60,465 nt of DNA, taken from Candidatus Dojkabacteria bacterium (GTDB lineage Bacteria > Patescibacteriota > Dojkabacteria > SC72). The translations under genes and the position numbers were made by a program. Each line of letters begins with the position of its first letter. The first letter of the stretch is position 1. The notes below the pieces were generated by a model, which saw only the letters and a program-made list of their open reading frames with translations, had not been told where the DNA came from and ran no database searches. Below are positions 43,878 to 60,465 of this stretch, in pieces. The stretch spans positions 1-60,465 of the forward strand of contig JBAYOB010000002.1 of NCBI GenBank assembly GCA_041678505.1, written 5' to 3'.

Positions 43878-43884
43878 AGTTAGT

Positions 43885-44409: not shown

Positions 44410-44529
44410 CTTAGTGGACAGTTAGATTAAGTACTACAATAATATATCATTTGTTATTTCTTTGTCTAGGTTGAAAGATATTTTTAATTATGTGATACTG
44501 ACTTATAATTAAATTTTTAGTACTTTACA

Positions 44530-44910: not shown

Positions 44911-44970
44911 TTAATTACAGTATAAAAACCAAATATAGTATAATAATCAAATAATTGTTATACTACTGTT

Positions 44971-45459: not shown

Positions 45460-45478
45460 GAGACCTTGATAGTATTCC

Positions 45479-45943: not shown

Positions 45944-45945
45944 TT

Positions 45946-47637: not shown

Positions 47638-47675
47638 AATAAAAATATAATTAATTTAAATAAATTTGTACTTAT

Positions 47676-48437: not shown

Positions 48438-49203
48438 TTAAATACTCTCGTATCTCCTTTATATAGTTAAAATATTTGCTACTCCCTTCATACTTTTTTC
48501 TAGGATAAGGTAGATCAATCCTGACTGTTTTGTGTATAGTAGAAGGCTTCTTTGTTAAAATTATTACTTCCTCAGATAGGAATACGGCCTCTTGAATACT
48601 GTGAGTTACAAAAAGAATTGTCTTTTTTAATCTAGTCCATATTTTGATGATTTCTTCATTCATCTTTCTTCTATTAATTTCATCTAAAGAGCCAAAAGGT
48701 TCGTCCATAAGGAGTAGTTCAGGGTTGTATGCAAGTGCTCTTCCAATAGATACTTTCTGTTGCATCCCTCCTGATAGTTCACTAGGTCTGTAGCTGGAGT
48801 AAGATGTTAGATCCAATATATCAAGTAGCTGTTTTATCTTTTTATCCCTTTCTCCTTGGTATCCCATTATTTCAAGAGGAAGAGATATATTCTCAACAAC
48901 ATTTCTCCATTCTAATAAAGTTGGTTTTTGAAATATCAATCCGATATTTCTATTTTTAGATGCAGTTTCAGGTTTTTCTCCATTAACTCTAATCTTTCCA
49001 GTTATCTTACAGGTATCTCTTGTAGGTAACCCACTAATTAATCTAAAAAGAGTTGATTTGCCACATCCTGAAGGTCCGATAATCGAAACAAAACTTCCTT
49101 TTTTAACAGTAAAATTCATATCTCTTAGTACATGTAAATATTTGTCATTACTATCAAACTGTACATTAAGATTTTTAATTGTTATCACATTGGAATTGTC
49201 CAT
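48421..49203 (-). CDS. ABC transporter ATP-binding protein
   Basis: Walker A GPSGCGKST, signature LSGGMQQKV and Walker B LLLMDEPFGSLD. Confidence 0.85.
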   Translation of the reverse strand: MDNSNVITIKNLNVQFDSNDKYLHVLRDMNFTVKKGSFVSIIGPSGCGKSTLFRLISGLPTRDTCKITGKIRVNGEKPETASKNRNIGLIFQKPTLLEWRNVVENISLPLEIMGYQGERDKKIKQLLDILDLTSYSSYRPSELSGGMQQKVSIGRALAYNPELLLMDEPFGSLDEINRRKMNEEIIKIWTRLKKTILFVTHSIQEAVFLSEEVIILTKKPSTIHKTVRIDLPYPRKKYEGSSKYFNYIKEIREYLNEASN

Positions 49204-50044
49204 ATCTGTATTTTTTGTTAATATAATTTCCGAATTTAGAGATAGCTATGAAGAAAAGTAAAGAAAGAATAGAGATGATAGCAATACTTACCCATACTCT
49301 TGCTATTAACAAGTTGTTAAAAGAATTATATATATCCTTTCCAATACCGTTTTTAACTGATAATGGAAGCTCAGTTACAATACTTGCTACAATACTTGCT
49401 GTAGTAAGGAGTTTCATATTGATTAATAGTGTAGGAACCAGAGATGGAAGAAGAAGATATTTGAAGATATATTTCTTTTCTTTTGTATATGAGTAAAGGA
49501 GTAAGAGATAATGCTCAGGTAGATTAATTATTGCCTTTCTAACAGCTACAGTAATGGGGAATATGTTAAAAAGAATAATGATAAATATCTTTGTTGTGGT
49601 ACTATAACCTAAATATACAGCTACTATGGGAGCTAGTGCAGGTACAGGGATTAGTTGTGTTAAGAAAAGGAAAGGGAATAGTATTGAATTAAGTAAGTTA
49701 TTTTGAGATACAAGTATTCCTAAGATTGAACCTAATATTAGAGATAAAAGGAAGCCAATCCCAGCATCTTTTAAGCTATATAGAGATTTCACTAGTACTG
49801 TTTGGTATCTATTAGAATGCTGTGTAAAAAATTCTTTGTGTATGAATTGATACAGAGTTGATGGCTTAGGAGCGATTCTAAGGGGAATATCAAAGTATAC
49901 AAAAGTTTTCTCCCATATGAGTAAGATTATAAAGAGACTTAATATTGTAATTACTATTTTCTTTATTGGGATATTTAAAAAAAAAGACCTTTTAGGTCCT
50001 TTTGAATCATTCTTTTCTTTTTTATCTTGTCTTAGAATTTGCAC
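49175..50044 (-). CDS. ABC transporter permease (second)
   Basis: Polytopic protein with the EAA-like loop YSYTKEKKYIFKYLLLPSLVPTL; overlaps the ATPase gene. Confidence 0.65.
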   Translation of the reverse strand: MQILRQDKKEKNDSKGPKRSFFLNIPIKKIVITILSLFIILLIWEKTFVYFDIPLRIAPKPSTLYQFIHKEFFTQHSNRYQTVLVKSLYSLKDAGIGFLLSLILGSILGILVSQNNLLNSILFPFLFLTQLIPVPALAPIVAVYLGYSTTTKIFIIILFNIFPITVAVRKAIINLPEHYLLLLYSYTKEKKYIFKYLLLPSLVPTLLINMKLLTTASIVASIVTELPLSVKNGIGKDIYNSFNNLLIARVWVSIAIISILSLLFFIAISKFGNYINKKYRYGQFQCDNN

Positions 50045-50089
50045 TCTAAGAATTCAGTATATCTTTGATAAAATAGTGTGTCAAGTTTT

Positions 50090-51211
50090 TTAATTATTTC
50101 TTGTATAAACTCTTGGAACTCTTTCACTAACTCCTGTTAAAATATTACCTATTGGAATCTTACTTAACTTAGATAAATTATGTAGAGATATATTATCTCC
50201 CCAAAGCTCTACCCTGTCTCCTACATATGCCTCCCCGTTTCTTTTTAAGTTAATCATTATTTGATCCATACATACATTACCAATAACAGAGTATGTTTTT
50301 CCATTAATATATACATGTCCCTTATTTGACAATGGAAATGGATATCCGTCAGCATAGCCTACAGGTAAGGTTACAATTCTGTTAAGGTCTTTGGTTGTAT
50401 AAGTTCTGTTATATCCTACCTGAGAATTTTCCTCTAACACTTTGAAATATGAGACTTCAGTATAAAACTTCATAACCGGTTTTAACAGTTTCTGTGTTTT
50501 AGAATTAAGACCATATCCATAGAGTGATAACCCGGGCCTAACCATGTCATAAAATGAGTCTTTATAATTATTAAAAATAGCCCCAGTATTTGCCAGATGG
50601 ATAATTGAGGGTAAGGTATAGTTTTTCTTTATATATCTTAAGACGGAATTAAATCTTTTAATTTGCGATTTTGTATACTCTTTATCACTAAAAGAGTTCG
50701 AAAAATGAGAAAATATCCCAACAATATTGATGTTTTTTAAATTGTAGGTTTTATCTATAAATTCCTTCTTTCTATCCCATTGCACTCCTATCCTACCCAT
50801 TCCCGTATCTATTTTGAGATGGACTCTTGCCGTTTTATTTAATTTAGTAGCTATCTTTGAAATATTTTCTATCTTATCAATAGAGGATCCTGTTATATCT
50901 ATATCATATTTTAAATATAAAGGTATTTGATTATCGTTAACAGCTCCTAAAACTAATATTGGTTTCTTAATGTTATGTTTACGTAAATAGATAGCCTCTT
51001 CAATGTATGCAGTACCTAAATAATCAACATTTAATTTTTCTAGCTCTTTAGATATTTCTACTAATCCATGTCCGTACGCATTAGCCTTTACAACTCCTAA
51101 TATTTTGGAGGGCTTTACAATGTTTTTAATTATATGATAGTTTTCTCTTAGATTACTTAGAGATATTTCGACATAAGTTGGTCTGTTCCTAAATGTTTTG
51201 TCATTGAACAT
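50090..51211 (-). CDS. alr: Alanine racemase
   Basis: VVKANAYGHG (PLP Lys), HLKIDTGMGRIG and VGYADGY. The start is taken at the ATG at 51211 (MFNDKTF), which has a GGAG SD; the track start at 51256 is a TTG upstream. Confidence 0.8.
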   Translation of the reverse strand: MFNDKTFRNRPTYVEISLSNLRENYHIIKNIVKPSKILGVVKANAYGHGLVEISKELEKLNVDYLGTAYIEEAIYLRKHNIKKPILVLGAVNDNQIPLYLKYDIDITGSSIDKIENISKIATKLNKTARVHLKIDTGMGRIGVQWDRKKEFIDKTYNLKNINIVGIFSHFSNSFSDKEYTKSQIKRFNSVLRYIKKNYTLPSIIHLANTGAIFNNYKDSFYDMVRPGLSLYGYGLNSKTQKLLKPVMKFYTEVSYFKVLEENSQVGYNRTYTTKDLNRIVTLPVGYADGYPFPLSNKGHVYINGKTYSVIGNVCMDQIMINLKRNGEAYVGDRVELWGDNISLHNLSKLSKIPIGNILTGVSERVPRVYTRNN

Positions 51212-51363
51212 ATTATGACTCCTCTCTAAAAATTCACACCCTACTCCTTTTAGCAATTAAGGTATCGTTATTTTAATAAGGTTCAATCCTGTTGTCAAAA
51301 TACTTCATTCTGTTTGATGATATAATTTTGATTGAAATAGGTAATTAAATGTAATAGCTAATT

Positions 51364-52002
51364 ATGAAGAGAAATATATATTGGAATATCTTTTTACTTG
51401 TTTTACTTTTTCATTTTGTAGTCCTTCTTCTTTGTGTTCTATCAGTTTTTGGTCTATTAGAATTAAGTTCATTAGGAACCTCTAATTACGTTTTAGCATA
51501 TGTACCTAGAATCTTTTTAATCTGTACTTTCTTACTTTCCTGTTTTTTTCTCTTTAAAAAGAGAAAATACCATAAGGATATGTATAGGACAGTAGCTCTC
51601 TCTCTTCTCTCCTTTGTTCCTTTTTTAGATACATTAGGTAATTTCTATGGTTGGTATGATATAAATAGTATTTTAAAAATCTTCTGGTATGATGATATTA
51701 TCCATTTTCTTAATCCTATCTTTGTTTCTTTAGGTTTGTATATATATATTTCTAAAATTAAAAAGATAGAGAGAAAAATGTCTCTCTTTCTCTCTGTAAT
51801 CCTATCTTTAACTCTATCTAGTCTATGGGAAATATATGAATACTGGAGTGATACTTTGATTGGTACCGATATGGTTAAGGGAGGGTTAGATGATACTATG
51901 CAAGACTTAACTTTTGGTTTGTTAGGGGTTGCTGTTTTTGCTTTGTTTGTGATTATCTGTCAAAAAAAGAAAAAAGGGGAATATCACCCACAAAGGTTTT
52001 AA
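51364..52002 (+). CDS. Hypothetical integral membrane protein
   Basis: Five or six hydrophobic segments; no motif recognised. Confidence 0.4.
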   Translation: MKRNIYWNIFLLVLLFHFVVLLLCVLSVFGLLELSSLGTSNYVLAYVPRIFLICTFLLSCFFLFKKRKYHKDMYRTVALSLLSFVPFLDTLGNFYGWYDINSILKIFWYDDIIHFLNPIFVSLGLYIYISKIKKIERKMSLFLSVILSLTLSSLWEIYEYWSDTLIGTDMVKGGLDDTMQDLTFGLLGVAVFALFVIICQKKKKGEYHPQRF

Positions 52003-52012
52003 TCATCGACAT

Positions 52013-52720
52013 ATGAACAAAACTATCAACAATTTAAGAAAAGAATTAAAAGAGAATGTTAATGACCATACTAAAAATACGACTCAAAGATTTTTTAAGG
52101 AAGAGATAAAAATCTATGGAGTTAAGATTCCAGTAGTAAATAGTATTGCAAAGAGATATTTTAGAGAGATTAAAGAGTTAGATAAAGGAGAGATATTCTT
52201 ACTGTGTGAAGAGCTGTTCTCATCAGGGTATATGGAAGAATCATTTGTAGCATGTGATTGGTCTTACAATTTAAGAGAGAGTTATGAAGAGAAAGATTTT
52301 TTAATATTTGAAGATTGGACTAAGCAATATATTAATAATTGGGCAGTATGTGATAGGTTCTGCAATCATACAATGGGTTCTTTTCTTAAGAAATATCCTA
52401 AATATGTAAAGAATTTAAAAGAATGGACAGGATCTAAAAATAGATGGGTTAGAAGAGCTTCTTCTGTTTCATTAATTATCCCAGCTAAGAAAGGAGAGTT
52501 TTTAAAAGATGTTTTTGAAATTGCAGATTTGCTTTTAAATGATGAAGATGATCTTGTACAAAAAGGTTACGGTTGGTTATTGAAAGTTGCAAGTGAAATT
52601 AATCAGAAGCAGGTATATGATTTTGTAGTAGCAAGAAAAGATACTATGCCAAGAACTGCATACAGGTATGCTATTGAGAAGATGCCTGTTAGTTTAAAGA
52701 AAGAAGCGATGAAGAAATAG
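52013..52720 (+). CDS. DNA alkylation repair protein (HEAT-repeat AlkC/AlkD-like family)
   Basis: RFFKEEIKIYGVKIPVV..., NNWAVCD, NRWVRRASSVSLI and QKGYGWLLK, typical of this family. Confidence 0.6.
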   Translation: MNKTINNLRKELKENVNDHTKNTTQRFFKEEIKIYGVKIPVVNSIAKRYFREIKELDKGEIFLLCEELFSSGYMEESFVACDWSYNLRESYEEKDFLIFEDWTKQYINNWAVCDRFCNHTMGSFLKKYPKYVKNLKEWTGSKNRWVRRASSVSLIIPAKKGEFLKDVFEIADLLLNDEDDLVQKGYGWLLKVASEINQKQVYDFVVARKDTMPRTAYRYAIEKMPVSLKKEAMKK

Positions 52721-52781
52721 TTTCTTAGCAAGAAAGGTTTGTCTTTTAAAATATTTAAATTAAATAATAGTGTTTTAAATT

Positions 52782-53120
52782 ATGAATATTAAAGATATAC
52801 AGAAATGGGAAAGAGATTTCTCTCGCAAGAAGGGTATTGCACAGGATGAGGAGAAAGCAATAAAGATAGGAATATTAAAATTAACAGAGGAGGTAGGTGA
52901 ATTATCAAAGGCTATTTTAGAGAAGAATTGGGAAGAGGTACCTGCAGAGGTTACTGATGTTATTGTGTTTGCTTGTAAGCTTGCTAATATAGCAGAGGAT
53001 TTTCATAATACAGAGAAGTTGGAAGAGGTTATGGAGGCTAAGTTAGAGTTTTGTGAGAAAAGGGTATATGACAAAGAGAAGAATAAATTTGATAAGCCAG
53101 CAGATAAGAAGTTTAAGTAG
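52782..53120 (+). CDS. MazG-like nucleotide pyrophosphohydrolase
   Basis: LKLTEEVGELSKAI ... EVTDVIVFACKLAN, the EExxE...D helical MazG signature. Confidence 0.5.
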   Translation: MNIKDIQKWERDFSRKKGIAQDEEKAIKIGILKLTEEVGELSKAILEKNWEEVPAEVTDVIVFACKLANIAEDFHNTEKLEEVMEAKLEFCEKRVYDKEKNKFDKPADKKFK

Positions 53121-53436
53121 AGAGATAATAATATTTCTTATACTAACCACTTATCTATTTTGGATCCAGATATTTTGCCACTTAAAAACCCATGTAGAGA
53201 GTTGTACTTGTTTTTCAGAATTAAGAGAGAAGACATTTTGAAAAGAAGAAAAAGCAAAAGAAGAACTAGGAAATGATAGCAAAAAAGAATCCTATGGAAC
53301 AGAGGTAGTTGTGGCCACATACAAATCCTGCTTTTGAGACCTTAAATAGTCAATGTTTACCATATTATTTAATAGGTATTTGAGACTTACCAAGCAAAAT
53401 TGTTTTCCTTTCTTTTGTATTCTAGAATGCACTACG

Positions 53437-53742
53437 ATGAAAAGAGATAATAAAAGCTGCATTGTTGTGATACTAGTAATAGTTGGTCTATACTTGCTTT
53501 TTAGAAATGTAATTACTTCTTCGAGAGCAACTGAAGGTATAGATGATTATAATGACTGCGTTGAAGAAGTACGACTTATATATAAAGAAATAATTCTAGA
53601 AGCTTGTGAGATGAATTCCTCAGTACATGAACCAGAAGTCATTAAGGATTGTGTGAATAGGTTAAATGCTGCTAAGGAACGTTATCTGATAAATATAATT
53701 ACAGAAGAGATATCTCAATGTGAATATTATTTGGGCAACTAA
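53437..53742 (+). CDS. Hypothetical small membrane-anchored protein
   Basis: MKRDNKSCIVVILVIVGLYLLF, then a soluble Cys-containing region. The track start at 53353 adds an unlikely leader. Confidence 0.35.
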   Translation: MKRDNKSCIVVILVIVGLYLLFRNVITSSRATEGIDDYNDCVEEVRLIYKEIILEACEMNSSVHEPEVIKDCVNRLNAAKERYLINIITEEISQCEYYLGN

Positions 53743-53924
53743 ATCTTAAAGAACTTCTCGGTAAAGAAACTCTAAAGCCATTTTTGTTATTAATTAAGTC
53801 TATCTTAATGCTATAACAGATAAGGAATAAGTTGTGGGAGTAAACGATTTTAGCCTCTTTAAACTTTTAATAAATGTTAAAAAGGGTTAGAAAAACTACC
53901 TTAGAAAGTATTTTTTCAAAATTT

Positions 53925-53933
53925 TGATATAAT
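53925..53933 (+). promoter_or_regulatory. Extended -10 box (TGaTATAAT) ending 7 nt before the ATG at 53940, implying a leaderless mRNA
   Basis: ttTGATATAATacattaATG; there is no SD between the box and the start codon. Confidence 0.3.
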
Positions 53934-53939
53934 ACATTA

Positions 53940-55367
53940 ATGATTAGAAGGTTGAATGACTATCTAAACATAAGTAACAAGGAGCTTGCAAGGTATGGAG
54001 CTTTTAATAGTTTTCTTGGTATTGATACAAAAGTTTTCTTAGACCCTCTACTTTTAGGAAATCTGAATACCCCTGAATTCTCTGCTTCCAGAGATCGTAT
54101 ACGTGAATATTATCGAAAGATTATTGTGTTATTAAATGCTTCAAAAGAAGAAGGTGATGTTGCTTGGATAGAAGCTTTTAAACGATTGAAAGTAAAGGAG
54201 ATTAAAGGCTTTTCTATCGGTTATGGGAATCATTCGGATGATGGCAATGGGATTGGATCTAAATTAGCGGAAGCTATTGTGAGGAGGGCAAAAGAAATAG
54301 TTGATATGGGAATTGAAGACCCTGAGATCTTTGAATTAATAGGCTTGTTTGAGGAAGGTATAGGAGCAGATAGATTAAGTGATCTCACAATAAAGATTGT
54401 TCACAAAGATCTCTTAGCATATTCGGCCAGAATAACACAAGAAATAGGCTTCTCTAATTTAATAGCAGTAAAATATAAAGAAAATAAATATTTTCTACCA
54501 AGGAATCCTTTAGGTACAAAGCCTATTTATTTTCTTCCTCAAAATGCCCTGAGAGACTTACCAATTGCTCTGGATTGGGATGAAATTGAAATTGTGACTA
54601 ATTTTAATATAGAATTGAGAAAAAAAGTAAATCAAGCAGTATCTGAAGTTTGGCAAAAATCTGTTAAAGAGAAGAAGAAAAAAATGATGCAAGTTATAAG
54701 ACAGGACCCAGAAATCCTTAAGAGTATGATTGAAGCCTACAAACATTCTAAAGGAAAAGGATATGATTTTGAAAATGATCCTAATGTTGAAATTAAATGG
54801 TTATCTATTGGTCAGAAAATTGCCAAAGAAAATCCTATTAAAATTTCTGCTTCTAAAAAATATACAAAGAAGAGTGTTTGTAAGATTTTGGATCAAATAA
54901 TAAAACAATATAAGAAATTGATAGAGTTTAATGGTCTAAATAACGAGTTATATAGAAAAGAAGGGTCAAAATTGATTCCTCATCATGAAAGAGTTGCTCA
55001 GCGTATATTTTTCGCTATCGCTGATACTTACTGTGCGGCAAATAATATAGGAATCAACAGAGAACCTAATGCTGGCTCTGGTTCTGTTGATTTTAAGTTT
55101 GGAATTGGTTATGAGGATAAAATTTTAGTTGAGATCAAACTTTCTAAGAACCCTGGGTTAAAGAATAAGTATCGTTCTCAAGTCGATATCTATATGAAAG
55201 CTGAAGGAACTGAAGAAAGTATATATCTTGTAATTAAAGTTACTGAGAAAAGTAAGCAATTGGAAGAATTAATTGAAATTGATGAGGAGGCTAAAAATTT
55301 GGGTCAAAAAGTGCCAAAACTCTATGTCATTGATGGAACAATAAAACCGTCGGCTAGTAAGAGATAA
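53940..55367 (+). CDS. Hypothetical protein: unknown ~340-aa N-terminal region fused to a C-terminal PD-(D/E)xK nuclease-like domain
   Basis: C-terminal signature HHERVAQRIFFAI (helix Glu) ... GSGSVDFKF (Asp) ... 14 aa ... ILVEIKLSKN (ExK) ... YRSQVDIYM. Confidence 0.5.
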   Translation: MIRRLNDYLNISNKELARYGAFNSFLGIDTKVFLDPLLLGNLNTPEFSASRDRIREYYRKIIVLLNASKEEGDVAWIEAFKRLKVKEIKGFSIGYGNHSDDGNGIGSKLAEAIVRRAKEIVDMGIEDPEIFELIGLFEEGIGADRLSDLTIKIVHKDLLAYSARITQEIGFSNLIAVKYKENKYFLPRNPLGTKPIYFLPQNALRDLPIALDWDEIEIVTNFNIELRKKVNQAVSEVWQKSVKEKKKKMMQVIRQDPEILKSMIEAYKHSKGKGYDFENDPNVEIKWLSIGQKIAKENPIKISASKKYTKKSVCKILDQIIKQYKKLIEFNGLNNELYRKEGSKLIPHHERVAQRIFFAIADTYCAANNIGINREPNAGSGSVDFKFGIGYEDKILVEIKLSKNPGLKNKYRSQVDIYMKAEGTEESIYLVIKVTEKSKQLEELIEIDEEAKNLGQKVPKLYVIDGTIKPSASKR

Positions 55368-55428
55368 AATCTTTTAATGTAGTATTTCTTGTTTTGTAGT
55401 TTTTTGGGTATAATTTCTTAAAGAAGGC

Positions 55429-56118
55429 ATGTATACATTATTTGTTTATATAGATGAAAGTGGAGATCTGATCTTTTCAAACAAAGGATCTAATTATTAT
55501 ATAATTACTTCGGTTATTACACATAATCCTCTTCCTGCAATTGAAAAGTTAGAAGAGCTAAGATTGGAAATTCTAAGTCAAAATAAGTTTCCAACTCTTT
55601 CAGATGACTATTTGCAAAAAAATACTGCTAATGGTTTTCATGCTACTTATGACAAGCAAGTTGTTCGAAATGAAGTTTTTGATATTATCCAATCTTTAGG
55701 TCATACAATTGCTGTCAATGCTGTAGTTATAGAAAAAAGAAAAGCTAATCCTTCAATTCGTGATACGAATAAGTTTTATTCTAAAATGTCTGCTTCTTTA
55801 TTGAAATATATTCAACAGAAGTATCGGTATAGTAACCTGTGTATAATGTTCAGCGGTACTCCAACAGAGAAAAAAAAGAATTTATTCAAATCAGCCATAA
55901 AAACAGAGATTAAAGCTCTTTCAATTACTAAGTCCTATAAGATTTATTTCCCTAATCCAAAATCTGATAGATTTTTAAATATTTCTGATTATGCATGCTG
56001 GGCAATTGCTAGAAAGTGGGAGAAAAATGATATAAGAAGTTATGATCTAATAAAAAGCCAGATAAATGTACCTGAGTTAGATATATTTCGCAGAGGGGAT
56101 GGTACTTTGTATTATTGA
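55429..56118 (+). CDS. DUF3800-family protein
   Basis: N-terminal LFVYIDESGDL motif and C-terminal NISDYACWAIARKW motif, characteristic of DUF3800 as I recall it. Confidence 0.55.
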   Translation: MYTLFVYIDESGDLIFSNKGSNYYIITSVITHNPLPAIEKLEELRLEILSQNKFPTLSDDYLQKNTANGFHATYDKQVVRNEVFDIIQSLGHTIAVNAVVIEKRKANPSIRDTNKFYSKMSASLLKYIQQKYRYSNLCIMFSGTPTEKKKNLFKSAIKTEIKALSITKSYKIYFPNPKSDRFLNISDYACWAIARKWEKNDIRSYDLIKSQINVPELDIFRRGDGTLYY

Positions 56119-56197
56119 CCTCTTCTCCTAGATAATTCAGCTTTCGCCGAGTTTCCTCCAACTATCAAAGCCAAAGGGGCTCTTTCAGAGAAGAGGT
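56118..56197. repeat. GC-enriched element closed by a perfect 10-bp inverted repeat
   Basis: ACCTCTTCTC (56118-27) pairs with GAGAAGAGGT (56188-97), enclosing 60 nt that contain an inner GCTTT/AAAGC pairing. It starts at the DUF3800 stop codon. Confidence 0.5.
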
Positions 56198-56378
56198 ACC
56201 TTTGAATAATAATAACAGTGTATGTATCTTTTGTAAATATTCCTCACAAGTAATTCAGAAAAATGCTGCTATGTCCCTCTTTTTTGATTCCTTGGTTTTT
56301 ATCAAGTCAAAATTAATTTAGACATTTTCTATGAGTTGTTTAATTGGTATTCTAGCATTTGAAAAATAATCAAACTTT

Positions 56379-56445
56379 ATGTTCTACTGAGAGTCTTCAG
56401 TAGAACATGGGGTCAGATAAGGGACATAGTAGAACACTTATCTGA
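56379..56445. repeat. Twin perfect hairpins sharing a thrice-repeated 9-mer (candidate origin/operator or structured RNA)
   Basis: Hairpin A is ATGTTCTACTGA-GAGTCT-TCAGTAGAACAT (12 bp, 56379-408). Hairpin B is TCAGATAAG-15 nt-CTTATCTGA (9 bp, 56413-45). AGTAGAACA occurs at 56399-407 and 56428-436, and inverted at 56380-88. Confidence 0.6.
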
Positions 56446-56535
56446 AGGTATAACAATTAATAGATTCCTTTTAGAAACAATTGAGAGTGTGTTGTATTCA
56501 AAAGTAACTATTCCCAATGTATAATCTTCTAATTT

Positions 56536-58044
56536 ATGAAAATATCAAAATCAGAATATCTTATGTATCTGGATGCTCCAATGCATCTGTGGGCATATGT
56601 ACACAAGAAGCTAGATTCTAATATCATAGATACTTTTACAAAACATCTATTTGAACAAGGATATGAAGTTCAAAAATATGCAAAAGAATACATTGAAAAA
56701 ATACTGATTCCAGATTCTTATCATAATACTAAGCAATTTAATCTTGAAGTAACAAAATCAGATGGGTTATTTGAAGCAAGGATAGATTTACTTGTTTTTA
56801 ATGAAAAGAAGGGAAATTGGGACTTAATTGAAATAAAGAGTACTAATGATATCAAACCTATTCATCAAAAAGATTTGACTTTTCAATATCTTATTTTTTC
56901 TAAGCACTATAAAATTGGTAAGTGTTATATTTTACATTTGGATAAAGATTATGAAAGGAAAGGTCAATTATCAATTAAAGAATTATTTACATTAACAGAT
57001 ATTACTGAAAAGGTTTTTGAATTAGTTGAAGCAGTGAATATTGAAAGATTCCTAGCTTTAGAAGTAGCTCAACTAGAAGAGTTCAAAGAAGTAGAAGCCT
57101 GTATTAAACCCAAGAAGTGTCCCTGCAAATCCCTTTGTCATCCAGTATTACCTTCTTACTCCTTATATGATGTTGCCCGTATTAGTAAGGAAAAAGTAAA
57201 TTTTATTAGGGATAATTATTCAAATGATATACAGGATTTACCAAATGATAATCAATTAGGTAAATATGCACTAACTGAAATCCAAAGAAAACAAGTAGAT
57301 GTGGCTCAAAGAAAAACATCATATATTGATATATTGGGGATAGAATCTTTCTTAAAAGAACTTAAATATCCTTTATACTTTATTGATTATGAAAGTTTTA
57401 TTCCTGCTATTCCTATGTATGACAATTATAAACCCTATGATCAAATGCCTTTCCAATATTCATTGCATATTAGAGAATCAAGTGATTCAGACTTTATACA
57501 TAAGGAATATCTAGAATGTTCAGCTGTTGATCCTTCTGTAGGTTTAATAAATTTTTTAAAAAGAGATATCCCTTTGGATGGTGGATCAATAATAATTTGG
57601 AGTAAGTTTGAAAGAACTCAAAACAATGCTATGAGCAGAAGATATCCAAAAGAGTCTGAATTTATTGAGAATATTAATTCTAGGCTTTGGGACTTGATGG
57701 AAATATTCCAGAAATCAATGCTTGTTCTTCCAGAATTTAAAGGTAGCTATTCTATTAAAAATATTTTGCCTGTTCTTGTACCTGAGCTTTCTTACAAAGG
57801 TATGCCTATTGCAGATGGGTCAGTTGCTATGACAAAGTGGGTGCAGATGGTCTATGGAGGTGGGATTACAGCCATGGATTATTCAGAATCTGAAGATGGT
57901 TTTTGTACAGAGGCTATAGATATTCCTAAAGAATCTGTGAATAAAGAAGAAGTCAAAAAGAATCTTTTAGAATATTGTAAGTTAGATACCTGGGCTATGG
58001 TAAAGATTTTGGAGAAAGTGGAATCCATTATAAAAGCTTCTTAA
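56536..58044 (+). CDS. DUF2779-type protein: N-terminal Cas4/RecB-like PD-(D/E)xK domain, Cys cluster and a C-terminal acidic-motif domain
   Basis: EARIDLLVF...WDLIEIKS (D...ExK), CIKPKKCPCKSLC (four Cys), then YPLYFIDYESF...MPFQYSLH...YCKLDTWAMV. Confidence 0.55.
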   Translation: MKISKSEYLMYLDAPMHLWAYVHKKLDSNIIDTFTKHLFEQGYEVQKYAKEYIEKILIPDSYHNTKQFNLEVTKSDGLFEARIDLLVFNEKKGNWDLIEIKSTNDIKPIHQKDLTFQYLIFSKHYKIGKCYILHLDKDYERKGQLSIKELFTLTDITEKVFELVEAVNIERFLALEVAQLEEFKEVEACIKPKKCPCKSLCHPVLPSYSLYDVARISKEKVNFIRDNYSNDIQDLPNDNQLGKYALTEIQRKQVDVAQRKTSYIDILGIESFLKELKYPLYFIDYESFIPAIPMYDNYKPYDQMPFQYSLHIRESSDSDFIHKEYLECSAVDPSVGLINFLKRDIPLDGGSIIIWSKFERTQNNAMSRRYPKESEFIENINSRLWDLMEIFQKSMLVLPEFKGSYSIKNILPVLVPELSYKGMPIADGSVAMTKWVQMVYGGGITAMDYSESEDGFCTEAIDIPKESVNKEEVKKNLLEYCKLDTWAMVKILEKVESIIKAS

Positions 58045-58054
58045 AATTATGGAC

Positions 58055-58083
58055 TAGACAGGATATCCCTAGCTTGTTATACT
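58055..58083 (+). promoter_or_regulatory. Sigma70-like promoter TAGACA-N17-TATACT
   Basis: TAGACA at 58055-60, an exact 17-nt spacer and TATACT at 58078-83, immediately after the DUF2779 stop. Confidence 0.4.
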
Positions 58084-58149
58084 ATTTCTAGAAGTACTTG
58101 GGTGGTGCTTCGCTTTATCTCAATAAGGCAAAAAAACAAGAAGGAATGT

Positions 58150-58184
58150 AAGACACTAAGTTATTTAGAGTGTCTTTTTTGTTT
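58150..58184 (+). terminator. Rho-independent terminator/attenuator hairpin
   Basis: AAGACACT (58150-57) pairs with AGTGTCTT (58169-76), followed by TTTTGTTT. Confidence 0.55.
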
Positions 58185-58439
58185 AAAGATGTAATTGAAA
58201 ATAAAATTGAATCAGTTTTTGAAAGTAAGCACCCCTACTCTGGTAACAATTATCCAAAGCTTTTAAATCTCCTTGAAAAGACAGAAGGAGGACCTATTCA
58301 AAATGGAGAATATTATGTTAACTCTTTAATCAAATTTATCAGTATTTTAAATGAGGCAGAAGAGGAATCTCAAAGAAAGGAGGTAATCCCTGAAGAAGTC
58401 AAAAAGAGTTCTTTCAGAGATAGACAGAATGGAGATTAG
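58170..58439 (+). CDS. Doubtful hypothetical ORF (GTG/TTG start inside the terminator stem)
   Basis: It has no ATG in frame and starts within the 3' arm of the hairpin. Its composition is protein-like, but nothing else supports it. Confidence 0.25.
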   Translation: MSFLFKDVIENKIESVFESKHPYSGNNYPKLLNLLEKTEGGPIQNGEYYVNSLIKFISILNEAEEESQRKEVIPEEVKKSSFRDRQNGD

Positions 58440-58725
58440 TGAGATTCAGTTTGTTCCTGTTAAACCTCAAGGTGGTCTTGTTGCTTTTGCAAGTTTTGTA
58501 TTAAACAATTGCTTGTATCTAGGGTCTATTGGTATAGTAACAAGGCCAAGTGGAGGATACCGTTTATTATATCCCAGTAAGAAGGTTCTTAATCAAAATT
58601 TTTCAATCTTCCACCCTATTACTCAGCAATTTGGTATAGATATTGAAAGAAGAATACTCTTAGAATATGAAAAGGTAATGAAAATGAATGATAGACACGG
58701 TTGTTTTAACAATACCAGTACTTAG
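58429..58725 (+). CDS. SpoVG-like nucleic-acid-binding protein
   Basis: MEISEIQFVPVKPQGGLVAFASFVLNNCLYLGSIGIVTRPSGGYRLLYPSKK...FHPITQQFGIDIERRIL follows the SpoVG pattern (MEITDVR...KAFVSIT...PSRK...HPI). Confidence 0.55.
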   Translation: MEISEIQFVPVKPQGGLVAFASFVLNNCLYLGSIGIVTRPSGGYRLLYPSKKVLNQNFSIFHPITQQFGIDIERRILLEYEKVMKMNDRHGCFNNTST

Positions 58726-59791
58726 AGAAAATATTCTTGCTCCTGAGAGATTTTCACCATCTGCTAATGGATTATTTAAAGAACCCTTTTACAAGGGATA
58801 TACTCCATGTAAATTAAACCCATCAAAAGAGCAAAAAGATGAAGGGAGATATCTTCCAAGATTAACATTGTCTTCTAGACCTAAGAAGGGAAATTGGGAG
58901 GTTTCCCTAAGGATAGAGTTCTCTGCCCCAAAGATTCTATTTGGAAATAATCTAAAAGAAGTTGATGATAAGGATTATAAAGAGTTAATATCTGAACTTT
59001 GCTTCAAACTCTTTACAATGGGCATTAAATTAGATCAAGAACAGATAGAAAAGGCTTCTGTATCTTCTATACACTTCTGTAAGAATATACTCCTAGAACC
59101 CTACCAGAGCTGCTCTATGGTCATCAATGAGCTAGAAAGGTATGGGAACTATAATGAATGGTTGGATTTAGATAAAACAAGCTTTAGAAATGGAGGACAT
59201 ATTCTTCATCTTCACACTGATAGGTGGGAATTTGTGGTATATGATAAGTTAAGAGATCTTCAAAGAGCAAAATTAGGTGAAAGAAGATCTGTTGATAAAG
59301 ATAATTACTCCCAATTAGACATTTTTAATGATGATAAGAGCAAACAAGAAATTTTAAGATTGGAGTTAAGAATTAATAGTAAAATAAAGATTGCTACACT
59401 ATTGTCAAGTGTTGGCTGTGGTATGGCTCTAAAAAACATTACATTCAGAAATATCTTTAAGAAAGTTATATCAAGGAGATTATTAATAGCATTTTTAAGA
59501 AAGATAAAAATAATGAGGAGTATTTCAAATCAGAATACAAGTAATAGCAATATTCTTTCAATCTGTGAGAGCATAAAGAAGTCTCTTCCTCTAATAACAG
59601 ATAGTGAAATAATGAAACTAACTTTTGGTTTTATTTTTATCAATGAATATGGAATTAAAGCTTTTAAAAGGTATATGCAGTGGAATACCAAAAAAGCATA
59701 TAAATGGAACAGATTCTATAAAAAATTAGAGAAAATTTATACAGTGTGTAATAATAGAGACACTTTGGAAATAATTGAATCAAAAATATGA
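58688..59791 (+). CDS. Rolling-circle replication initiator of the filamentous-phage gene II/X (CRI) family
   Basis: MIDTVVLTIPV matches f1/M13 gpII MIDMLVLRLPF. LRIEFSAPKILFGNNL matches VEIKASPAKVLQGHNV. VSSIHF matches ISRIDATF, and ILRLELRINSK matches LVRFEARIKTR. The gpII sequence is from memory. Confidence 0.6.
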   Translation: MIDTVVLTIPVLRENILAPERFSPSANGLFKEPFYKGYTPCKLNPSKEQKDEGRYLPRLTLSSRPKKGNWEVSLRIEFSAPKILFGNNLKEVDDKDYKELISELCFKLFTMGIKLDQEQIEKASVSSIHFCKNILLEPYQSCSMVINELERYGNYNEWLDLDKTSFRNGGHILHLHTDRWEFVVYDKLRDLQRAKLGERRSVDKDNYSQLDIFNDDKSKQEILRLELRINSKIKIATLLSSVGCGMALKNITFRNIFKKVISRRLLIAFLRKIKIMRSISNQNTSNSNILSICESIKKSLPLITDSEIMKLTFGFIFINEYGIKAFKRYMQWNTKKAYKWNRFYKKLEKIYTVCNNRDTLEIIESKI

Positions 59792-60465
59792 GTACTAAAA
59801 AAGAATTAAAATTTATTGATCTTTTTGCAGGTATTGGGGGAACAAGAATTGGGTTTGAACAAGCAACTAAAGAGTTAGGTTTTATTCCTAAATGTGTGTT
59901 TACATCAGAGATAAAGACTGATGCTATTAATGTTTATTCTCAAAACTTTCAAGATAAAAAAATTGCAGGTGATATAACCCAAATTGAAGCAAAAGAAATT
60001 CCGGACTTTAATTTCCTTCTTGCAGGTTTTCCTTGCCAACCTTTTAGCTCTGCAGGAAGCAGAAAGGGATTTTTAGATACAAGAGGAACTCTATTTTTTG
60101 ATATAGAAAGAATATTAAAAGAGAAAGAGCCTGAAGGTTTCCTACTTGAAAATGTTGAAGGTTTGGTTAATCATGACAGGGGTAGAACTCTGTCTACTAT
60201 TCTCCAATCCCTTGAGAATCTTGGGTACAAGGTTGCTTGGAAAGTTATTAATGCAGCTAATCATGGAATCCCTCAAAATAGAAAAAGAATCTATATTGTT
60301 GGAAGAAGAGATAAGTTTGTTTCTTTGGAGAATTTAGTACAACAAGAATCAAAATTAGAAGATCTTTTAGAGAAGGATTTGCCTGCTTACAAATCTAAAT
60401 TTACTAAAAGACTTTTAGAGCATTATAAGTTAGATGAACTTGTAGGGAAATCTATAAAGGATAAA
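59788..60465 (+). CDS. dcm: DNA (cytosine-5)-methyltransferase, N-terminal 226 aa; runs off the window end
   Basis: Own translation: MSTKKELKFIDLFAGIGGTRIGF (motif I), GFPCQPFSSAG (motif IV), LLENVEGL (motif VI) and QNRKRIYIVG (motif VIII). The ATG overlaps the Rep TGA (ATGA). Confidence 0.85.
   Translation, partial: MSTKKELKFIDLFAGIGGTRIGFEQATKELGFIPKCVFTSEIKTDAINVYSQNFQDKKIAGDITQIEAKEIPDFNFLLAGFPCQPFSSAGSRKGFLDTRGTLFFDIERILKEKEPEGFLLENVEGLVNHDRGRTLSTILQSLENLGYKVAWKVINAANHGIPQNRKRIYIVGRRDKFVSLENLVQQESKLEDLLEKDLPAYKSKFTKRLLEHYKLDELVGKSIKDK

What the first reader, a model, noticed from the sequence alone, without database searches (positions are those of the whole stretch)
53743..60465. Right-hand 6.7 kb is an accessory island mixing nuclease-like genes, structured DNA, a rolling-circle Rep and an m5C methyltransferase
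Upstream of about 53.7 kb every gene is housekeeping. Downstream, none is. The run is a PD-(D/E)xK fusion protein, a DUF3800 protein, 417 nt of repeat-rich non-coding DNA and a DUF2779 Cas4-like protein. It continues with a promoter/terminator leader, a SpoVG-like gene, a gene II-like initiator and a dcm gene. This is what a defence island or an integrated plasmid/phage-like replicon looks like. I cannot assign the nuclease genes to any named defence system. If the host is a small-genome episymbiont, a resident rolling-circle element with its own defence cargo would be unusual.
Basis: partly seen in the sequence, partly recalled or inferred. Interest (0 to 1): 0.75.

Follow-up and report, generated by a model that had tools for sequence, protein, structure and literature searches.

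The report
tRNA-His island with integrated replicon
The right end of this contig is a variable hotspot beside a tRNA-His gene. It holds two stray nuclease-like genes and an intact 7.1-kb mobile element that carries a restriction-modification system and belongs to a widespread, apparently undescribed element family.

Summary

Extending the contig with an identical public contig shows the dcm gene is part of a complete type II restriction-modification cassette. A large serine recombinase (LSR) follows, and its stop codon lies inside a convergent tRNA-His gene.

Two related Dojkabacteria genomes carry different DNA at this locus:
- **Unit 1, window 53124-56413:** recombinase-less variable DNA with a small ORF, a DUF8370/DUF8371 protein with RecB-type nuclease motifs, and DUF3800.
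- **Unit 2, window 56414 to 63530 on the extended sequence:** a 7,117-bp element.

All six junctions across the three haplotypes switch exactly at ATGGGGT, the tRNA-His 3' end.

The element backbone is a small ORF, a SpoVG-like gene, a distant gene II-type Rep and the LSR. This backbone recurs in at least 160 species genomes, including CPR groups, Alphaproteobacteria and Omnitrophota. The LSR usually ends in a tRNA gene, and the cargo is mostly restriction-modification and HigBA genes.

I found no phage genes, and no circular form or empty site in public contigs. I rate it a new variant of a known kind, closest in concept to tycheposons and integrative mobilizable elements (IMEs).

The parts
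53124..56413 (.). Strain-variable island DNA with no recombinase of its own. It holds a small ORF, the DUF8370/8371 protein, DUF3800 and a spacer. A 95%-identical relative carries different genes here.
   Evidence: L118 matches the window at 95.1% up to 53123 and then diverges. There it carries SNase/Excalibur, a 247-aa gene, an APH-like gene and a 53-aa gene. L007/L116 keep this segment at 99.9%.
53437..53742 (+). Small predicted membrane-anchored protein. It is 101 aa from ATG 53437, or 129 aa from 53353. Function unknown.
   Evidence: ORF list. Called as 91, 101 or 129 aa in different assemblies. No family hit.
53940..55367 (+). 475-aa DUF8370/DUF8371 protein with RecB/Cas4-type nuclease motifs in its C-terminal domain. 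It is a stand-alone accessory gene and a candidate defence nuclease.
   Evidence: phrog_30194 at 1e-102. PDC-M36A at 2e-12, N-terminal part only. At least 503 homologues spread patchily across phyla. Invariant D384, E398, K400, Q414 and Y418. Homologues are solitary or sit in R-M/Abi islands, and in the five contexts examined none sits next to DUF3800. AF2 model pLDDT 83. No significant PDB fold match, but the weak hits are enriched in PD-(D/E)xK nucleases.
55429..56118 (+). DUF3800 protein (RNase H2-like, N-terminal IDESG 'DE' motif). No reverse transcriptase nearby.
   Evidence: PF12686 at 3.6e-10. PADLOC DUF3800_VII at 1.6e-14. DUF3800 is the accessory protein of type VII retrons (PMC7736814).
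56119..56378 (.). Non-coding spacer after DUF3800. It contains a branched stem-loop closed by 56118-56127 / 56188-56197. Function unknown.
   Evidence: Inverted repeats. RNA fold z-scores of -0.9 (+) and -1.9 (-), not significant. No Rfam hit.
56379..56408 (-). Perfect 12-bp hairpin directly outside the att core. Read on the minus strand it follows the old tRNA-His 3' end, so it is probably the original tRNA terminator.
   Evidence: Inverted repeat I2, 100% complementary, 6-nt loop. Its position relative to the core is seen. The terminator role is inferred.
56407..56413 (+). attL common core ATGGGGT. It is the reverse complement of the tRNA-His 3' end (last acceptor-stem bases, discriminator C, CCA, plus 1 nt).
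   Evidence: Window and sister genome are identical up to 56413 and unrelated after it. The same 7-mer sits at all six junctions of three haplotypes. It is the only ATGGGGTN7GGGAC site in the window. Logan contig L010 ends at 56413.
56414..60465 (+). Left 4,052 bp of a 7,117-bp integrated element. The rest is on L001 2878-5942, with the attR core at L001 5936-5942. It continues through the methyltransferase 3' part, the NgoBV-type endonuclease, the controller protein and the large serine recombinase up to tRNA-His.
   Evidence: L001 is 100% identical to window 57589-60465. Genes. tRNA-His at L001 5937-6013 on the minus strand. Sister-genome similarity resumes at composite coordinate 63523.
56413..56445 (+). 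Element-side att arm: TCAGATAAG-N15-CTTATCTGA hairpin containing GGGAC, which mimics the tRNA T-arm sequence.
   Evidence: Inverted repeat I5, 9 bp perfect. Comparing four element or tRNA arms gives the consensus GNNTNANNGGGAC(A/T).
56536..58044 (+). Cargo: 502-aa protein with a Cas4/RecB-like N-terminal motif (D..EIK, Cys cluster) and a DUF2779 domain.
   Evidence: PF11074 at 7.7e-34, residues 281-406. Weak TIGR03491 RecB-like hit at 9e-6. No homologue in the other 80 element loci, so it is cargo specific to this element.
58150..58185 (+). Hairpin AAGACACT-N11-AGTGTCTT followed by a T-run, ahead of the backbone operon. It could be a terminator/insulator or a replication origin. Undecided.
   Evidence: Inverted repeat I3. 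The stem and T-run are conserved in Dojkabacteria UBA2259 although the upstream cargo differs. A promoter-like site lies at 58055-58083.
58170..58439 (+). Small backbone ORF (89 aa as listed; start uncertain), function unknown. ORFs of 83-102 aa hold this position in the closest elements.
   Evidence: No family hit even at E 10. L023 has a stop codon in the frame of the GTG start.
58429..58725 (+). SpoVG-like DNA/RNA-binding protein. Its gene overlaps the Rep gene by 38 nt.
   Evidence: PF04026 at 38.8 bits, cutoff 29.6. Solved SpoVG structures match at E 0.03 over the full length. A SpoVG-like ORF overlaps the Rep start by 29-53 nt in 66 of 85 Rep copies, and lies 20-27 nt upstream without overlap in 2 more.
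58688..59791 (+). 367-aa replication initiator-like protein, a distant branch of the filamentous-phage gene II (G2P / Phage_CRI) family.
   Evidence: Family of 1,413 clusters at 50% identity. Invariant Y185-D186-K187, R224/E226/R228 and H129. PF05144 is hit by 8 of 43 members: 28 bits for P0019 and 21.7 bits for the sister-genome copy, cutoff 21.7. AF2 pLDDT 82.5. BFVD fold hits at E 2e-7 to 9e-6 include an Inoviridae protein. No PDB fold match.
59788..60465 (+). First 226 codons of a 432-aa m5C DNA methyltransferase, the M subunit of the cargo type II R-M system.
   Evidence: TIGR00675 at 3e-80. Full-length PF00145 at 2e-88. The adjacent RE_NgoBV scores 1e-49 and the controller protein 2.5e-20.

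Best explanation
The region is a hotspot for accessory DNA beside the tRNA-His gene of a Candidatus Dojkabacteria (CPR) genome. It has two parts.

**Part 1, window 53124-56413.** This is strain-variable DNA with no mobility genes. It carries two unrelated nuclease-like accessory genes: a stand-alone DUF8370/8371 protein with RecB-type nuclease motifs, and an orphan DUF3800 RNase H-like protein.

**Part 2, window 56414 to 63530 on the extended sequence.** This is an intact 7.1-kb integrative element.

How the element most likely works:
- Its large serine recombinase recombines an element site, which lies inside the last codons of the recombinase gene, with the 3' end of tRNA-His. The common core is ATGGGGT.
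- The element supplies a replacement tRNA 3' end, so the tRNA stays intact.
- After excision the circle is probably copied by rolling-circle replication. The gene II-type Rep would start this, helped by the translationally coupled SpoVG-like DNA-binding protein.
- The cargo is a controller-regulated type II restriction-modification system plus a DUF2779 nuclease. It would protect the host and penalise loss of the element.

Shown by sequence comparison: gene content, exact junctions, replacement and tandem stacking of different elements at the same core, and recurrence of the architecture across phyla.

Inferred only: recombinase activity, excision, rolling-circle replication, the role of the SpoVG-like protein, and how the element moves between cells.
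For: **Extension.** L001 is 100% identical over 2,877 nt. It adds the methylase 3' end, RE_NgoBV, a controller protein, the LSR (Resolvase + Recombinase + Zn ribbon) and a convergent tRNA-His that overlaps the LSR stop by 12 nt.

**Three haplotypes at one locus.**
- Window: MazG | p475, DUF3800 | this element | tRNA-His.
- GCA_050950225.1: the same left flank at 99.95%, then two different elements in tandem, then tRNA-His and pyrG, with the right flank at 97.9%.
- GCA_964534655.1: left flank at 95% up to 53123, then other genes, then one of those elements.

All six junctions switch exactly at ATGGGGT.

**Horizontal spread.** An element 88% identical to the sister genome's first element sits at the tRNA-His of another Dojkabacteria species with unrelated flanks.

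**Family-wide pattern.** The genome scan found 160 relatives, of which 80 loci were analysed.
- 85 Rep copies were counted in 82 sequences: those 80 loci, the sister-genome locus L017 and the extended window. 68 have an adjacent SpoVG-like ORF and 62 have an LSR downstream on the same strand.
- 34 of the 48 Rep-LSR pairs with enough downstream DNA end inside a convergent tRNA gene. The tRNAs are mostly Asn, Gln, Arg, His and Glu.
- Identity blocks of 12-20 nt between attL and attR give element sizes of 6.8-12.5 kb.
- Cargo between Rep and LSR is mainly type I, IIG, ISP, III and II R-M genes plus HigB/HTH pairs.
- The closest relatives share the backbone but carry different R-M cassettes.

**Rep identity.**
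Against: - No excised circle (attP) or empty site (attB) was found in JGI metagenome contigs. The only hit was the attR junction.
- The window's own Rep has no direct family hit. No solved structure matches its model. Its nick site and origin are not identified.
- Common cores of 7-20 nt are more usual for tyrosine integrases than for serine integrases.
- 14 of the 48 LSR cases do not end in a detectable tRNA. Some of these are inner members of tandem arrays.
- No transfer machinery is encoded.
Confidence: 0.8

Rival explanations
1. The element is an integrative mobilizable element. The gene II-like protein would act mainly as a relaxase, nicking an origin of transfer so that a helper's transfer apparatus exports single-stranded DNA. 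It would not be a vegetative replication initiator.
For: Streptococcal IMEs commonly encode relaxases related to rolling-circle initiators, including the phage gene II-like PHA00330 type, together with tyrosine or serine recombinases (PMC5704250). This element has no transfer genes of its own.
Against: - No coupling protein such as TcpA or VirD4, and no conjugation gene, was seen in the element or in the cargo survey's most frequent Pfam families.
- To my knowledge, conjugative systems are not described in many of the hosts, which are CPR bacteria.
- In the streptococcal survey reviewed, most such relaxases (83 of 118) came with a TcpA coupling protein.
Confidence: 0.12
2. It is a defective or satellite filamentous-phage-like prophage. 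Its single-stranded DNA, made by the gene II-like protein, would be packaged by its own or a helper phage's coat and assembly proteins.
For: The Rep family is related to PF05144. The Rep model resembles uncharacterised Inoviridae proteins. Filamentous phages are small and replicate by rolling circle.
Against: - No Zot-type assembly ATPase, coat or adsorption gene. The element's ORFs have no PHROG hits; in the region only the DUF8370/8371 protein and the methylase do.
- No relative of the Rep in 2.9 million IMG/VR viral contigs, in 50,697 phage records or in 72,556 plasmids.
- Minimal family members consist of little more than SpoVG, Rep and LSR.
Confidence: 0.05
3. The whole 53.7-60.5 kb stretch is one defence island acquired in a single event. 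The recombinase would be a remnant, so nothing here is mobile any longer.
For: Composition is uniform across the stretch. Almost all genes are on the same strand. Several are nuclease-like or R-M genes.
Against: - The two halves vary independently. p475 + DUF3800 are kept while the element is swapped, and in another genome they are replaced while an element is present.
- All backbone ORFs are intact. The same architecture recurs with intact genes in many phyla.
- An 88%-identical element occurs in a different species.
Confidence: 0.03

Closest known systems
Tycheposons (Prochlorococcus and other streamlined marine bacteria; bioRxiv 10.1101/2020.12.28.424599)
   Same: - Small integrative elements in streamlined genomes.
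- A site-specific integrase sits at one end and faces inward, next to a small replication module and exchangeable cargo.
- They insert at the 3' side of tRNA genes and stack in tandem.
- They build islands that also contain left-behind genes without mobility functions. The locus here shows all of these features.
   Different: - Tycheposons are defined by a lineage-specific tyrosine recombinase (910 of 937 elements; only 27 have an LSR) and by primase/helicase-type replication genes.
- This family has an LSR in all complete copies seen, a gene II-like rolling-circle Rep and, in most copies, a SpoVG-like gene.
- Its cargo is mostly R-M and toxin-antitoxin genes, not nutrient-uptake genes.
- Hosts are CPR bacteria, Alphaproteobacteria, Omnitrophota and others.
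Integrative mobilizable elements with rolling-circle-initiator-like relaxases (PHA00330 / Rep_trans types) in Firmicutes (PMC5704250)
   Same: - Small integrated elements combining a site-specific recombinase with a protein related to rolling-circle initiators, including the gene II-like PHA00330 type.
- Some carry R-M or toxin-antitoxin cargo.
   Different: - In that review, serine-recombinase IMEs insert inside and disrupt protein-coding genes, and tRNA or gene 3' ends are the targets of tyrosine recombinases. Here a serine recombinase targets tRNA 3' ends without disrupting them.
- No coupling protein and no known helper.
- The SpoVG partner is not reported there.
Gene II / gene X replication initiators of filamentous phages (Pfam PF05144 Phage_CRI)
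   Same: - N-terminal roughly 235 residues are homologous at family level.
- Same N-terminal signature (MIDTVVL...) and a conserved tyrosine-containing motif.
- Fold resemblance to Inoviridae proteins.
   Different: - The window's protein does not reach the Pfam threshold itself.
- It has a distinct helical C-terminal half.
- It is encoded in a chromosomal LSR element with no phage morphogenesis genes.
Large serine integrases of temperate phages and of Tn4451 / SCCmec-type elements
   Same: Resolvase catalytic domain with the N-terminal RVSS motif, plus recombinase domain and zinc ribbon. The gene sits at the element end next to the attachment site.
   Different: - The target is the 3' end of a tRNA gene.
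- The element's attachment site lies inside the recombinase's own last codons. Integration therefore changes the protein's C-terminus: 496 aa when integrated, 531 aa across the circular junction.
- Common cores of 7-20 nt.
Type II R-M systems with controller protein (NgoBV / NlaIV-like)
   Same: m5C methylase, RE_NgoBV-family endonuclease and a C-protein, with the endonuclease and C-protein genes convergent on the methylase gene.
   Different: None in kind. Here the system is cargo of the element. Sister elements carry NgoPII, ScaI, type IIG or type III systems in the same slot.

Membership tests
Large serine recombinase integrative element | Recombinase with resolvase catalytic domain, recombinase domain and zinc ribbon | tested here: met
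   PF00239 at 2e-12, PF07508 at 6e-12, PF13408 at 3e-6, all above their cutoffs. N-terminal IARVSSTEQ motif. The gene lies just beyond the window on L001, which is 100% identical in the overlap.
Large serine recombinase integrative element | Element bounded by attachment sites that share a short common core, with the target restored or defined | tested here: met
   ATGGGGT at attL (56407-56413) and at attR (L001 5936-5942). The same core sits at all six junctions in three haplotypes. tRNA-His is intact at attR.
Large serine recombinase integrative element | Demonstrated excision or integration (circular junction, empty site, or in vitro recombination) | tested here: inconclusive
   No attB or attP in JGI metagenome contigs. 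Replacement and tandem stacking of different elements at the same core is indirect evidence. Raw reads could not be searched.
Gene II / Phage_CRI (PF05144) rolling-circle initiators | Significant match to the family profile | tested here: inconclusive
   The window's protein has no hit even at E 10. Its homologues do hit: 8 of 43, with P0019 at 28 bits and the sister-genome copy at 21.7 bits, cutoff 21.7. The window protein matched those homologues at E-values down to about 1e-61.
Gene II / Phage_CRI (PF05144) rolling-circle initiators | Conserved catalytic tyrosine and metal-binding residues | tested here: inconclusive
   Y185-D186-K187, E226, H129 and D160 are invariant in 43 sequences. I could not align them to the experimentally defined catalytic tyrosine of gpII.
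Gene II / Phage_CRI (PF05144) rolling-circle initiators | Cognate double-strand origin with a nick site | tested here: inconclusive
   The only candidate is a conserved hairpin at 58150-58176. Its stem is conserved but its loop is not.
Filamentous (inovirus / plectrovirus-like) prophage | Zot-type assembly ATPase, major coat and adsorption proteins | tested here: not met
   No such Pfam, PHROG or NCBIfam hits in any element ORF. The Rep family is absent from IMG/VR and from phage records.
Tycheposon | Lineage-specific tyrosine recombinase as integrase | tested here: not met
   The integrase is a large serine recombinase. The definition is taken from the preprint.
Tycheposon | tRNA-gene target, tandem arrays, small replication module plus cargo | tested here: met
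   tRNA-His target. Tandem E1-E2 array in the sister genome. Rep module plus R-M cargo.
Integrative mobilizable element | Relaxase with origin of transfer, often with a coupling protein, and dependence on a conjugative helper | not testable with these tools
   The Rep-like protein could act as a relaxase by analogy with PHA00330-type IMEs. No coupling protein was found. No helper is known.
Type II restriction-modification system with controller | Methyltransferase, cognate endonuclease and C-protein in one cassette | tested here: met
   PF00145 at 2e-88, PF09564 RE_NgoBV at 1e-49, PADLOC Control_protein at 2.5e-20.
SpoVG family | Full-length match to the SpoVG domain | tested here: met
   PF04026 residues 1-82 of 82, 38.8 bits, cutoff 29.6. 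Weak full-length match to solved SpoVG structures, E 0.03. It is below NCBIfam's equivalog cutoff (35 against 108), so it is SpoVG-like and not the housekeeping orthologue.
Type VII retron (DUF3800 effector) | Reverse transcriptase and msr/msd RNA next to DUF3800 | tested here: not met
   DUF3800_VII hit at 1.6e-14. No reverse transcriptase in the neighbourhood and no Rfam retron or DUF3800 motif.
PADLOC candidate system PDC-M36 | Full-length match to PDC-M36A and presence of any partner genes | tested here: inconclusive
   The match covers only residues 3-298 of 475, E 2e-12. The composition of PDC-M36 was not available in the papers searched.
RecB/Cas4-type PD-(D/E)xK nuclease (for the 475-aa protein) | Motifs D, ExK and QxxxY on a restriction-endonuclease-like fold | tested here: inconclusive
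   The motifs are invariant. The fold search gives only weak hits (E at least 0.12), though these include Can2, DdmD, CdiA-CT, MUS81/XPF, PspGI and Cap4. No sequence-level PDB hit.

The most novel reading that the evidence does not exclude
The window holds a member of an undescribed family of small integrative replicons that spans phyla. The family has 1,413 Rep clusters at 50% identity and occurs in at least 160 species genomes.

- The backbone is a SpoVG-like gene, a gene II-type Rep and a large serine recombinase.
- The recombinase targets the 3' ends of tRNA genes, a niche classically held by tyrosine integrases.
- The element's attachment site lies inside the recombinase's own last codons. 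The conserved Trp codon TGG is the complement of the tRNA CCA end.
- Integration therefore rewrites the recombinase's C-terminus, which could act as a built-in directionality switch.
- The family may be a main vehicle that moves restriction-modification systems among CPR and other small-genome or predatory bacteria lacking conjugation.
Probability: 0.45. Interest if true: 0.72.

Novelty: new variant of a known kind. Interest (0 to 1): 0.6.

Why it matters
CPR bacteria have tiny genomes, no known conjugation and few described mobile elements. How they exchange defence genes is largely unknown.

This locus gives a concrete and repeatable answer. A compact element with exact, predictable junctions swaps and stacks at a tRNA gene and carries interchangeable restriction-modification cassettes.

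- The recombinases come with attachment sites that can be deduced from sequence. That makes them testable candidates for genetic tools in organisms that currently have almost none, and adds tRNA-specific enzymes to the serine integrase toolbox.
- The constant pairing of a SpoVG-like protein with a gene II-type initiator suggests a replication-related role for SpoVG-like proteins, one I did not find described.
- The junction rule also explains why assemblies of these genomes break at this spot.

Tried and rejected
- **Direct repeat of the tRNA-His 3' end by blastn-short.** Nothing stood out, because the repeat is only 7 nt exact. It appeared only after comparison with the sister genome.
- **Empty site and circular junction in JGI metagenome contigs.** The exact 34-mer and then a degenerate 26-mer returned only the attR junction.
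- **Rep relatives in IMG/VR, phage records and plasmids.** None found.
- **PDB fold and sequence searches for Rep and for the 475-aa protein.** No significant match.
- **Rfam on the whole region.** No hit, so none of the known DUF3800-associated RNA motifs is present.
- **Folding the 260-nt spacer.** Not more stable than shuffles.
- **DUF8370/8371 + DUF3800 as a two-gene system.** Rejected. In five other contexts examined, the 475-aa gene is not next to DUF3800.
- **A decayed older element upstream.** No second att-like site in the window.
- **Cluster look-ups to name the organism.** They returned no names. The name came from a protein on the sister contig.
- **Generic attL search in 32 loci.** Only about seven gave repeats clearly above shuffled controls.

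Full report
**1. What is in the window**

| Coordinates | Feature | Key evidence |
|---|---|---|
| 53940-55367 | 475-aa protein | Not in my Pfam copy. Precomputed DUF8370 + DUF8371. phrog_30194 at 1e-102. PADLOC PDC-M36A at 2e-12, N-terminal part only |
| 55429-56118 | DUF3800 | E 3.6e-10; PADLOC DUF3800_VII |
| 56119-56535 | 417 nt, no ORF | Inverted repeats |
| 56536-58044 | DUF2779 protein, 502 aa | E 7.7e-34 |
| 58170-58439 | 89-aa ORF | No family hit |
| 58429-58725 | SpoVG-like gene | 38.8 bits, cutoff 29.6 |
| 58688-59791 | 367-aa Rep-like protein | No hit in any library, even at E 10 |
| 59788-60465 | m5C methyltransferase, N-terminal part | TIGR00675 at 3e-80 |

GC content is about 31% throughout, with no shift at the boundary. 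Genes upstream are housekeeping: the dcw/Mur cluster, pyruvate kinase, alanine racemase, an ABC transporter and others. The window is the whole 60,465-bp contig.

**2. Extending the contig**

An exact-protein look-up of the Rep-like protein returned a 9,247-bp Logan contig, L001. It is 100% identical to window 57589-60465. Beyond the window it carries:
- the rest of the methylase (432 aa, PF00145 at 2e-88);
- a convergent RE_NgoBV endonuclease (1e-49);
- a controller protein (PADLOC Control_protein at 2.5e-20);
- a large serine recombinase, or LSR, of 496 aa with Resolvase, Recombinase and Zn-ribbon domains.

The LSR stop codon lies 12 nt inside a convergent tRNA-His gene. After the tRNA come two small genes and CTP synthase. 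The dcm gene is therefore part of a complete type II restriction-modification (R-M) cassette, and a recombinase marks the right edge.

**3. Mapping the boundaries with related genomes**

Look-ups of the MazG-like, DUF3800 and, later, a MerR-like protein retrieved the same locus from other assemblies. I write "composite" coordinates for the window extended by L001.

- **GCA_050950225.1.** This 696,677-bp contig is named Candidatus Dojkabacteria bacterium in NCBI. It is 99.95% identical to window 42783-56428. It is 97.9% identical again from composite coordinate 63523, through tRNA-His and pyrG.
- **What lies between.** That genome carries two other elements in tandem.
  - E1: SpoVG-like gene, Rep homologue, NgoPII R-M, LSR of 526 aa.
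  - E2: MerR-like gene, Rep homologue, N6/N4 methylase, type III-like Res subunit, LSR of 506 aa.
- **GCA_964534655.1.** It is 95.1% identical to the window only up to 53123, directly after the MazG-like stop. It then has a SNase/Excalibur nuclease, a 247-aa gene, an APH-like gene and a 53-aa gene in place of the 129-aa ORF, the 475-aa protein and DUF3800. E2 and tRNA-His follow.

At single-base resolution all six junctions switch exactly at ATGGGGT. This 7-mer is the reverse complement of the tRNA-His 3' end: the last two acceptor-stem bases, discriminator C, encoded CCA and one more base. On the far side of the core, every element's left arm mimics the tRNA sequence, with the consensus GNNTNANNGGGAC(A/T).

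- **53124-56413:** variable DNA with no mobility genes.
- **56414 to composite 63530:** a 7,117-bp element.

The "structured" 417-nt spacer resolves into four pieces:
- the DUF3800 downstream spacer;
- a perfect 12-bp hairpin at 56379-56408, probably the old tRNA terminator;
- the att core;
- the element's hairpin-containing arm, with a promoter-like site for the DUF2779 gene.

**4. The Rep-like protein**

- A word-indexed search found at least 256 homologues of about 380 aa. An exhaustive profile search found 1,413 clusters at 50% identity, 653 of them at E of 1e-30 or better.
- Forty-three aligned members share invariant Y185-D186-K187, R224/E226/R228, H129, the EFSxPK motif and others.
- Eight of the 43 hit PF05144, the N-terminal domain of filamentous-phage gene II protein. 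P0019 scores 28 bits and the sister genome's E1 copy 21.7 bits, against a gathering score of 21.7.
- The AlphaFold model (pLDDT 82.5) has no PDB neighbour. It does match predicted viral proteins at E 2e-7 to 9e-6, including one from Inoviridae.
- The family is absent from IMG/VR, from 50,697 phage records and from 72,556 plasmids.

I conclude that it is a distant branch of the gene II-type initiators. Catalysis and the origin are untested.

**5. The element family**

A scan of one genome per species found 160 relatives, and I analysed 80 loci. Hosts include:
- CPR groups: Dojkabacteria (best match 62%), Saccharibacteria, Peribacteria, Peregrinibacteria, Gracilibacteria and others;
- Alphaproteobacteria: Rickettsiales, Micavibrio;
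- Omnitrophota, Thermodesulfobacteriota, Babeliales and Dehalococcoidia.

The counts below use 85 Rep copies in 82 sequences: those 80 loci, the sister-genome locus L017 and the extended window.

| Feature | Count |
|---|---|
| SpoVG-like ORF overlapping the Rep start by 29-53 nt | 66 of 85 |
| SpoVG-like ORF 20-27 nt upstream, no overlap | 2 of 85 |
| LSR downstream on the same strand | 62 of 85 |
| Rep-LSR pairs with at least 150 nt of downstream DNA that end inside a convergent tRNA gene | 34 of 48 |

The target tRNAs are mainly Asn, Gln, Arg, His and Glu, with single cases of Asp, Pro and Gly. In several loci, attL and attR share exact blocks of 12-20 nt that start just outside the tRNA 3' end. 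These give element sizes of 6.8-12.5 kb.

Cargo between Rep and LSR was surveyed as 126 ORFs from 48 loci. It is dominated by R-M genes:
- N6_Mtase, 20;
- Eco57I, 14;
- MmeI methylase, 9;
- Methylase_S, 9;
- ResIII, 8;
- N6_N4 methylase, 6;
- type ISP specificity domain, 5.

HigB toxins (10) and HTH partners (10) make up most of the rest.

The closest relatives keep the backbone but carry ScaI-type or type IIG cassettes in the same slot. An element 88% identical to E1 sits at the tRNA-His of Dojkabacteria UBA5209, whose flanks are unrelated to the window. That indicates horizontal spread.

**6. The two left-hand genes**

- **The 475-aa protein** has at least 503 homologues of nearly constant length. 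They are scattered over CPR groups, Planctomycetota, Cyanobacteria, Bacteroidota, Acidobacteriota and others.
  - In five contexts it is solitary or sits among R-M, GmrSD and AbiE genes, and is not next to DUF3800.
  - Its C-terminal domain keeps invariant D384, E398-x-K400 and Q414xxxY418, the RecB/Cas4 nuclease signature.
  - The fold search was not significant, but its weak hits are mostly PD-(D/E)xK nucleases.
- **DUF3800** is RNase H2-like and serves as the accessory protein of type VII retrons (PMC7736814). There is no reverse transcriptase here.
  - DUF3800 genes are also known to lie beside eleven different structured RNA motifs (PMC5737381).
  - None of the Rfam models matches, and the spacer's fold is not significant.
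Neither can be assigned to a validated defence system.

**7. Mechanism**

Shown by sequence:
- the gene set;
- intact ORFs;
- exact common-core junctions;
- an intact tRNA at attR;
- independent replacement and tandem stacking at the same core;
- the same architecture across phyla.

Inferred:
- The LSR recombines attP with the tRNA 3' end.
- attP overlaps the LSR's last codons. The integrated gene therefore encodes 496 aa ending KWGE, and the circular form would encode 531 aa.
- The circle replicates by the rolling-circle route using Rep and the SpoVG-like protein.
- The R-M cargo stabilises the element and defends the host.
- Transfer between cells is unexplained. Natural transformation or a helper phage or other element are both possible.

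**8. Comparison with known systems and novelty**

- **Closest concept: tycheposons.** These are tRNA-targeting integrative elements with a replication module and cargo. They stack in tandem and leave island genes behind. They are defined by a tyrosine recombinase lineage and primase/helicase modules.
- **Streptococcal IMEs** combine recombinases with gene II-like (PHA00330) relaxases. In that review, serine-recombinase IMEs insert within genes.
- **Literature.** My full-text searches found no description of a SpoVG-Rep-LSR element or of serine recombinases that systematically target tRNA 3' ends. This is absence of evidence within an open-access library.
- **Rating.** I rate the finding a new variant of a known kind, with moderate to high interest.

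Noticed in passing
L001 5900-5950 (just right of the window) together with window 56414-56520: The recombinase's stop codon lies inside tRNA-His (..AAA TGG GGT GAA TGA). Across the circular junction the same frame would run on for 35 more codons, giving 531 aa instead of 496. In the sister genome's tandem array the first element's recombinase is 526 aa because it reads into the next element. The Trp codon TGG is the complement of the tRNA CCA end in all 32 loci compared.
   Followed up: partly
window 58150-58185; L023 about 9357-9430: The hairpin AAGACACT-N10/11-AGTGTCTT with a T-run is conserved between the window's element and the Dojkabacteria UBA2259 element, although their upstream cargo differs. 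In L023 the frame of the window's GTG-58170 start contains a stop, so the 89-aa ORF may start further downstream.
   Followed up: partly
window 56119-56378: The 260-nt spacer after DUF3800 starts with a branched structure closed by a 10-bp perfect stem. DUF3800 genes are known to neighbour eleven different structured RNA motifs. No Rfam model matches here and the fold is not significant. Homologous spacers for a covariation test were not available.
   Followed up: partly
L116 9100-18290 (sister genome); L117; L119; L120: A second element type (E2) has a MerR-like 220-aa gene and a Rep homologue but no detectable SpoVG-like ORF. It carries an N6/N4 methylase with a type III-like Res subunit. 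It occurs both behind another element and directly behind chromosomal DNA.
   Followed up: partly
L118 5466-9038 (GCA_964534655.1): In a 95%-identical relative, the slot of the 475-aa protein and DUF3800 is filled by a secreted-type SNase/Excalibur nuclease, a 247-aa gene, an APH-like kinase and a 53-aa gene. The stretch between the MazG-like gene and the att core is therefore a second replaceable slot with no visible recombination sites.
   Followed up: partly
L017 12332-12997 and about 18 of the 80 genome loci: A 221-aa gene of unknown function recurs just upstream of the SpoVG-like gene in many elements but is missing from the window's element. It may be an optional backbone gene.
   Followed up: no
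L027 (JAHLWS010000050.1): A contig binned as 'Promethearchaeota archaeon' carries a Rep-LSR pair (no SpoVG-like ORF detected) ending in a tRNA-Gln. This could be mis-binning or transfer across domains.
   Followed up: no
window 56413 and 60465: Assembly breaks coincide with the element. A Logan contig (L010) ends exactly at the att core, and the window's own contig ends inside the methylase gene. This suggests mixed haplotypes in the source samples.
   Followed up: no
L100 397-2174: In a Rickettsiales MAG, two adjacent ORFs homologous to the 475-aa protein (possibly one split gene) lie directly after a recombinase fragment, at the left end of another SpoVG-Rep-LSR element. This gene family can therefore also travel as element cargo.
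   Followed up: no
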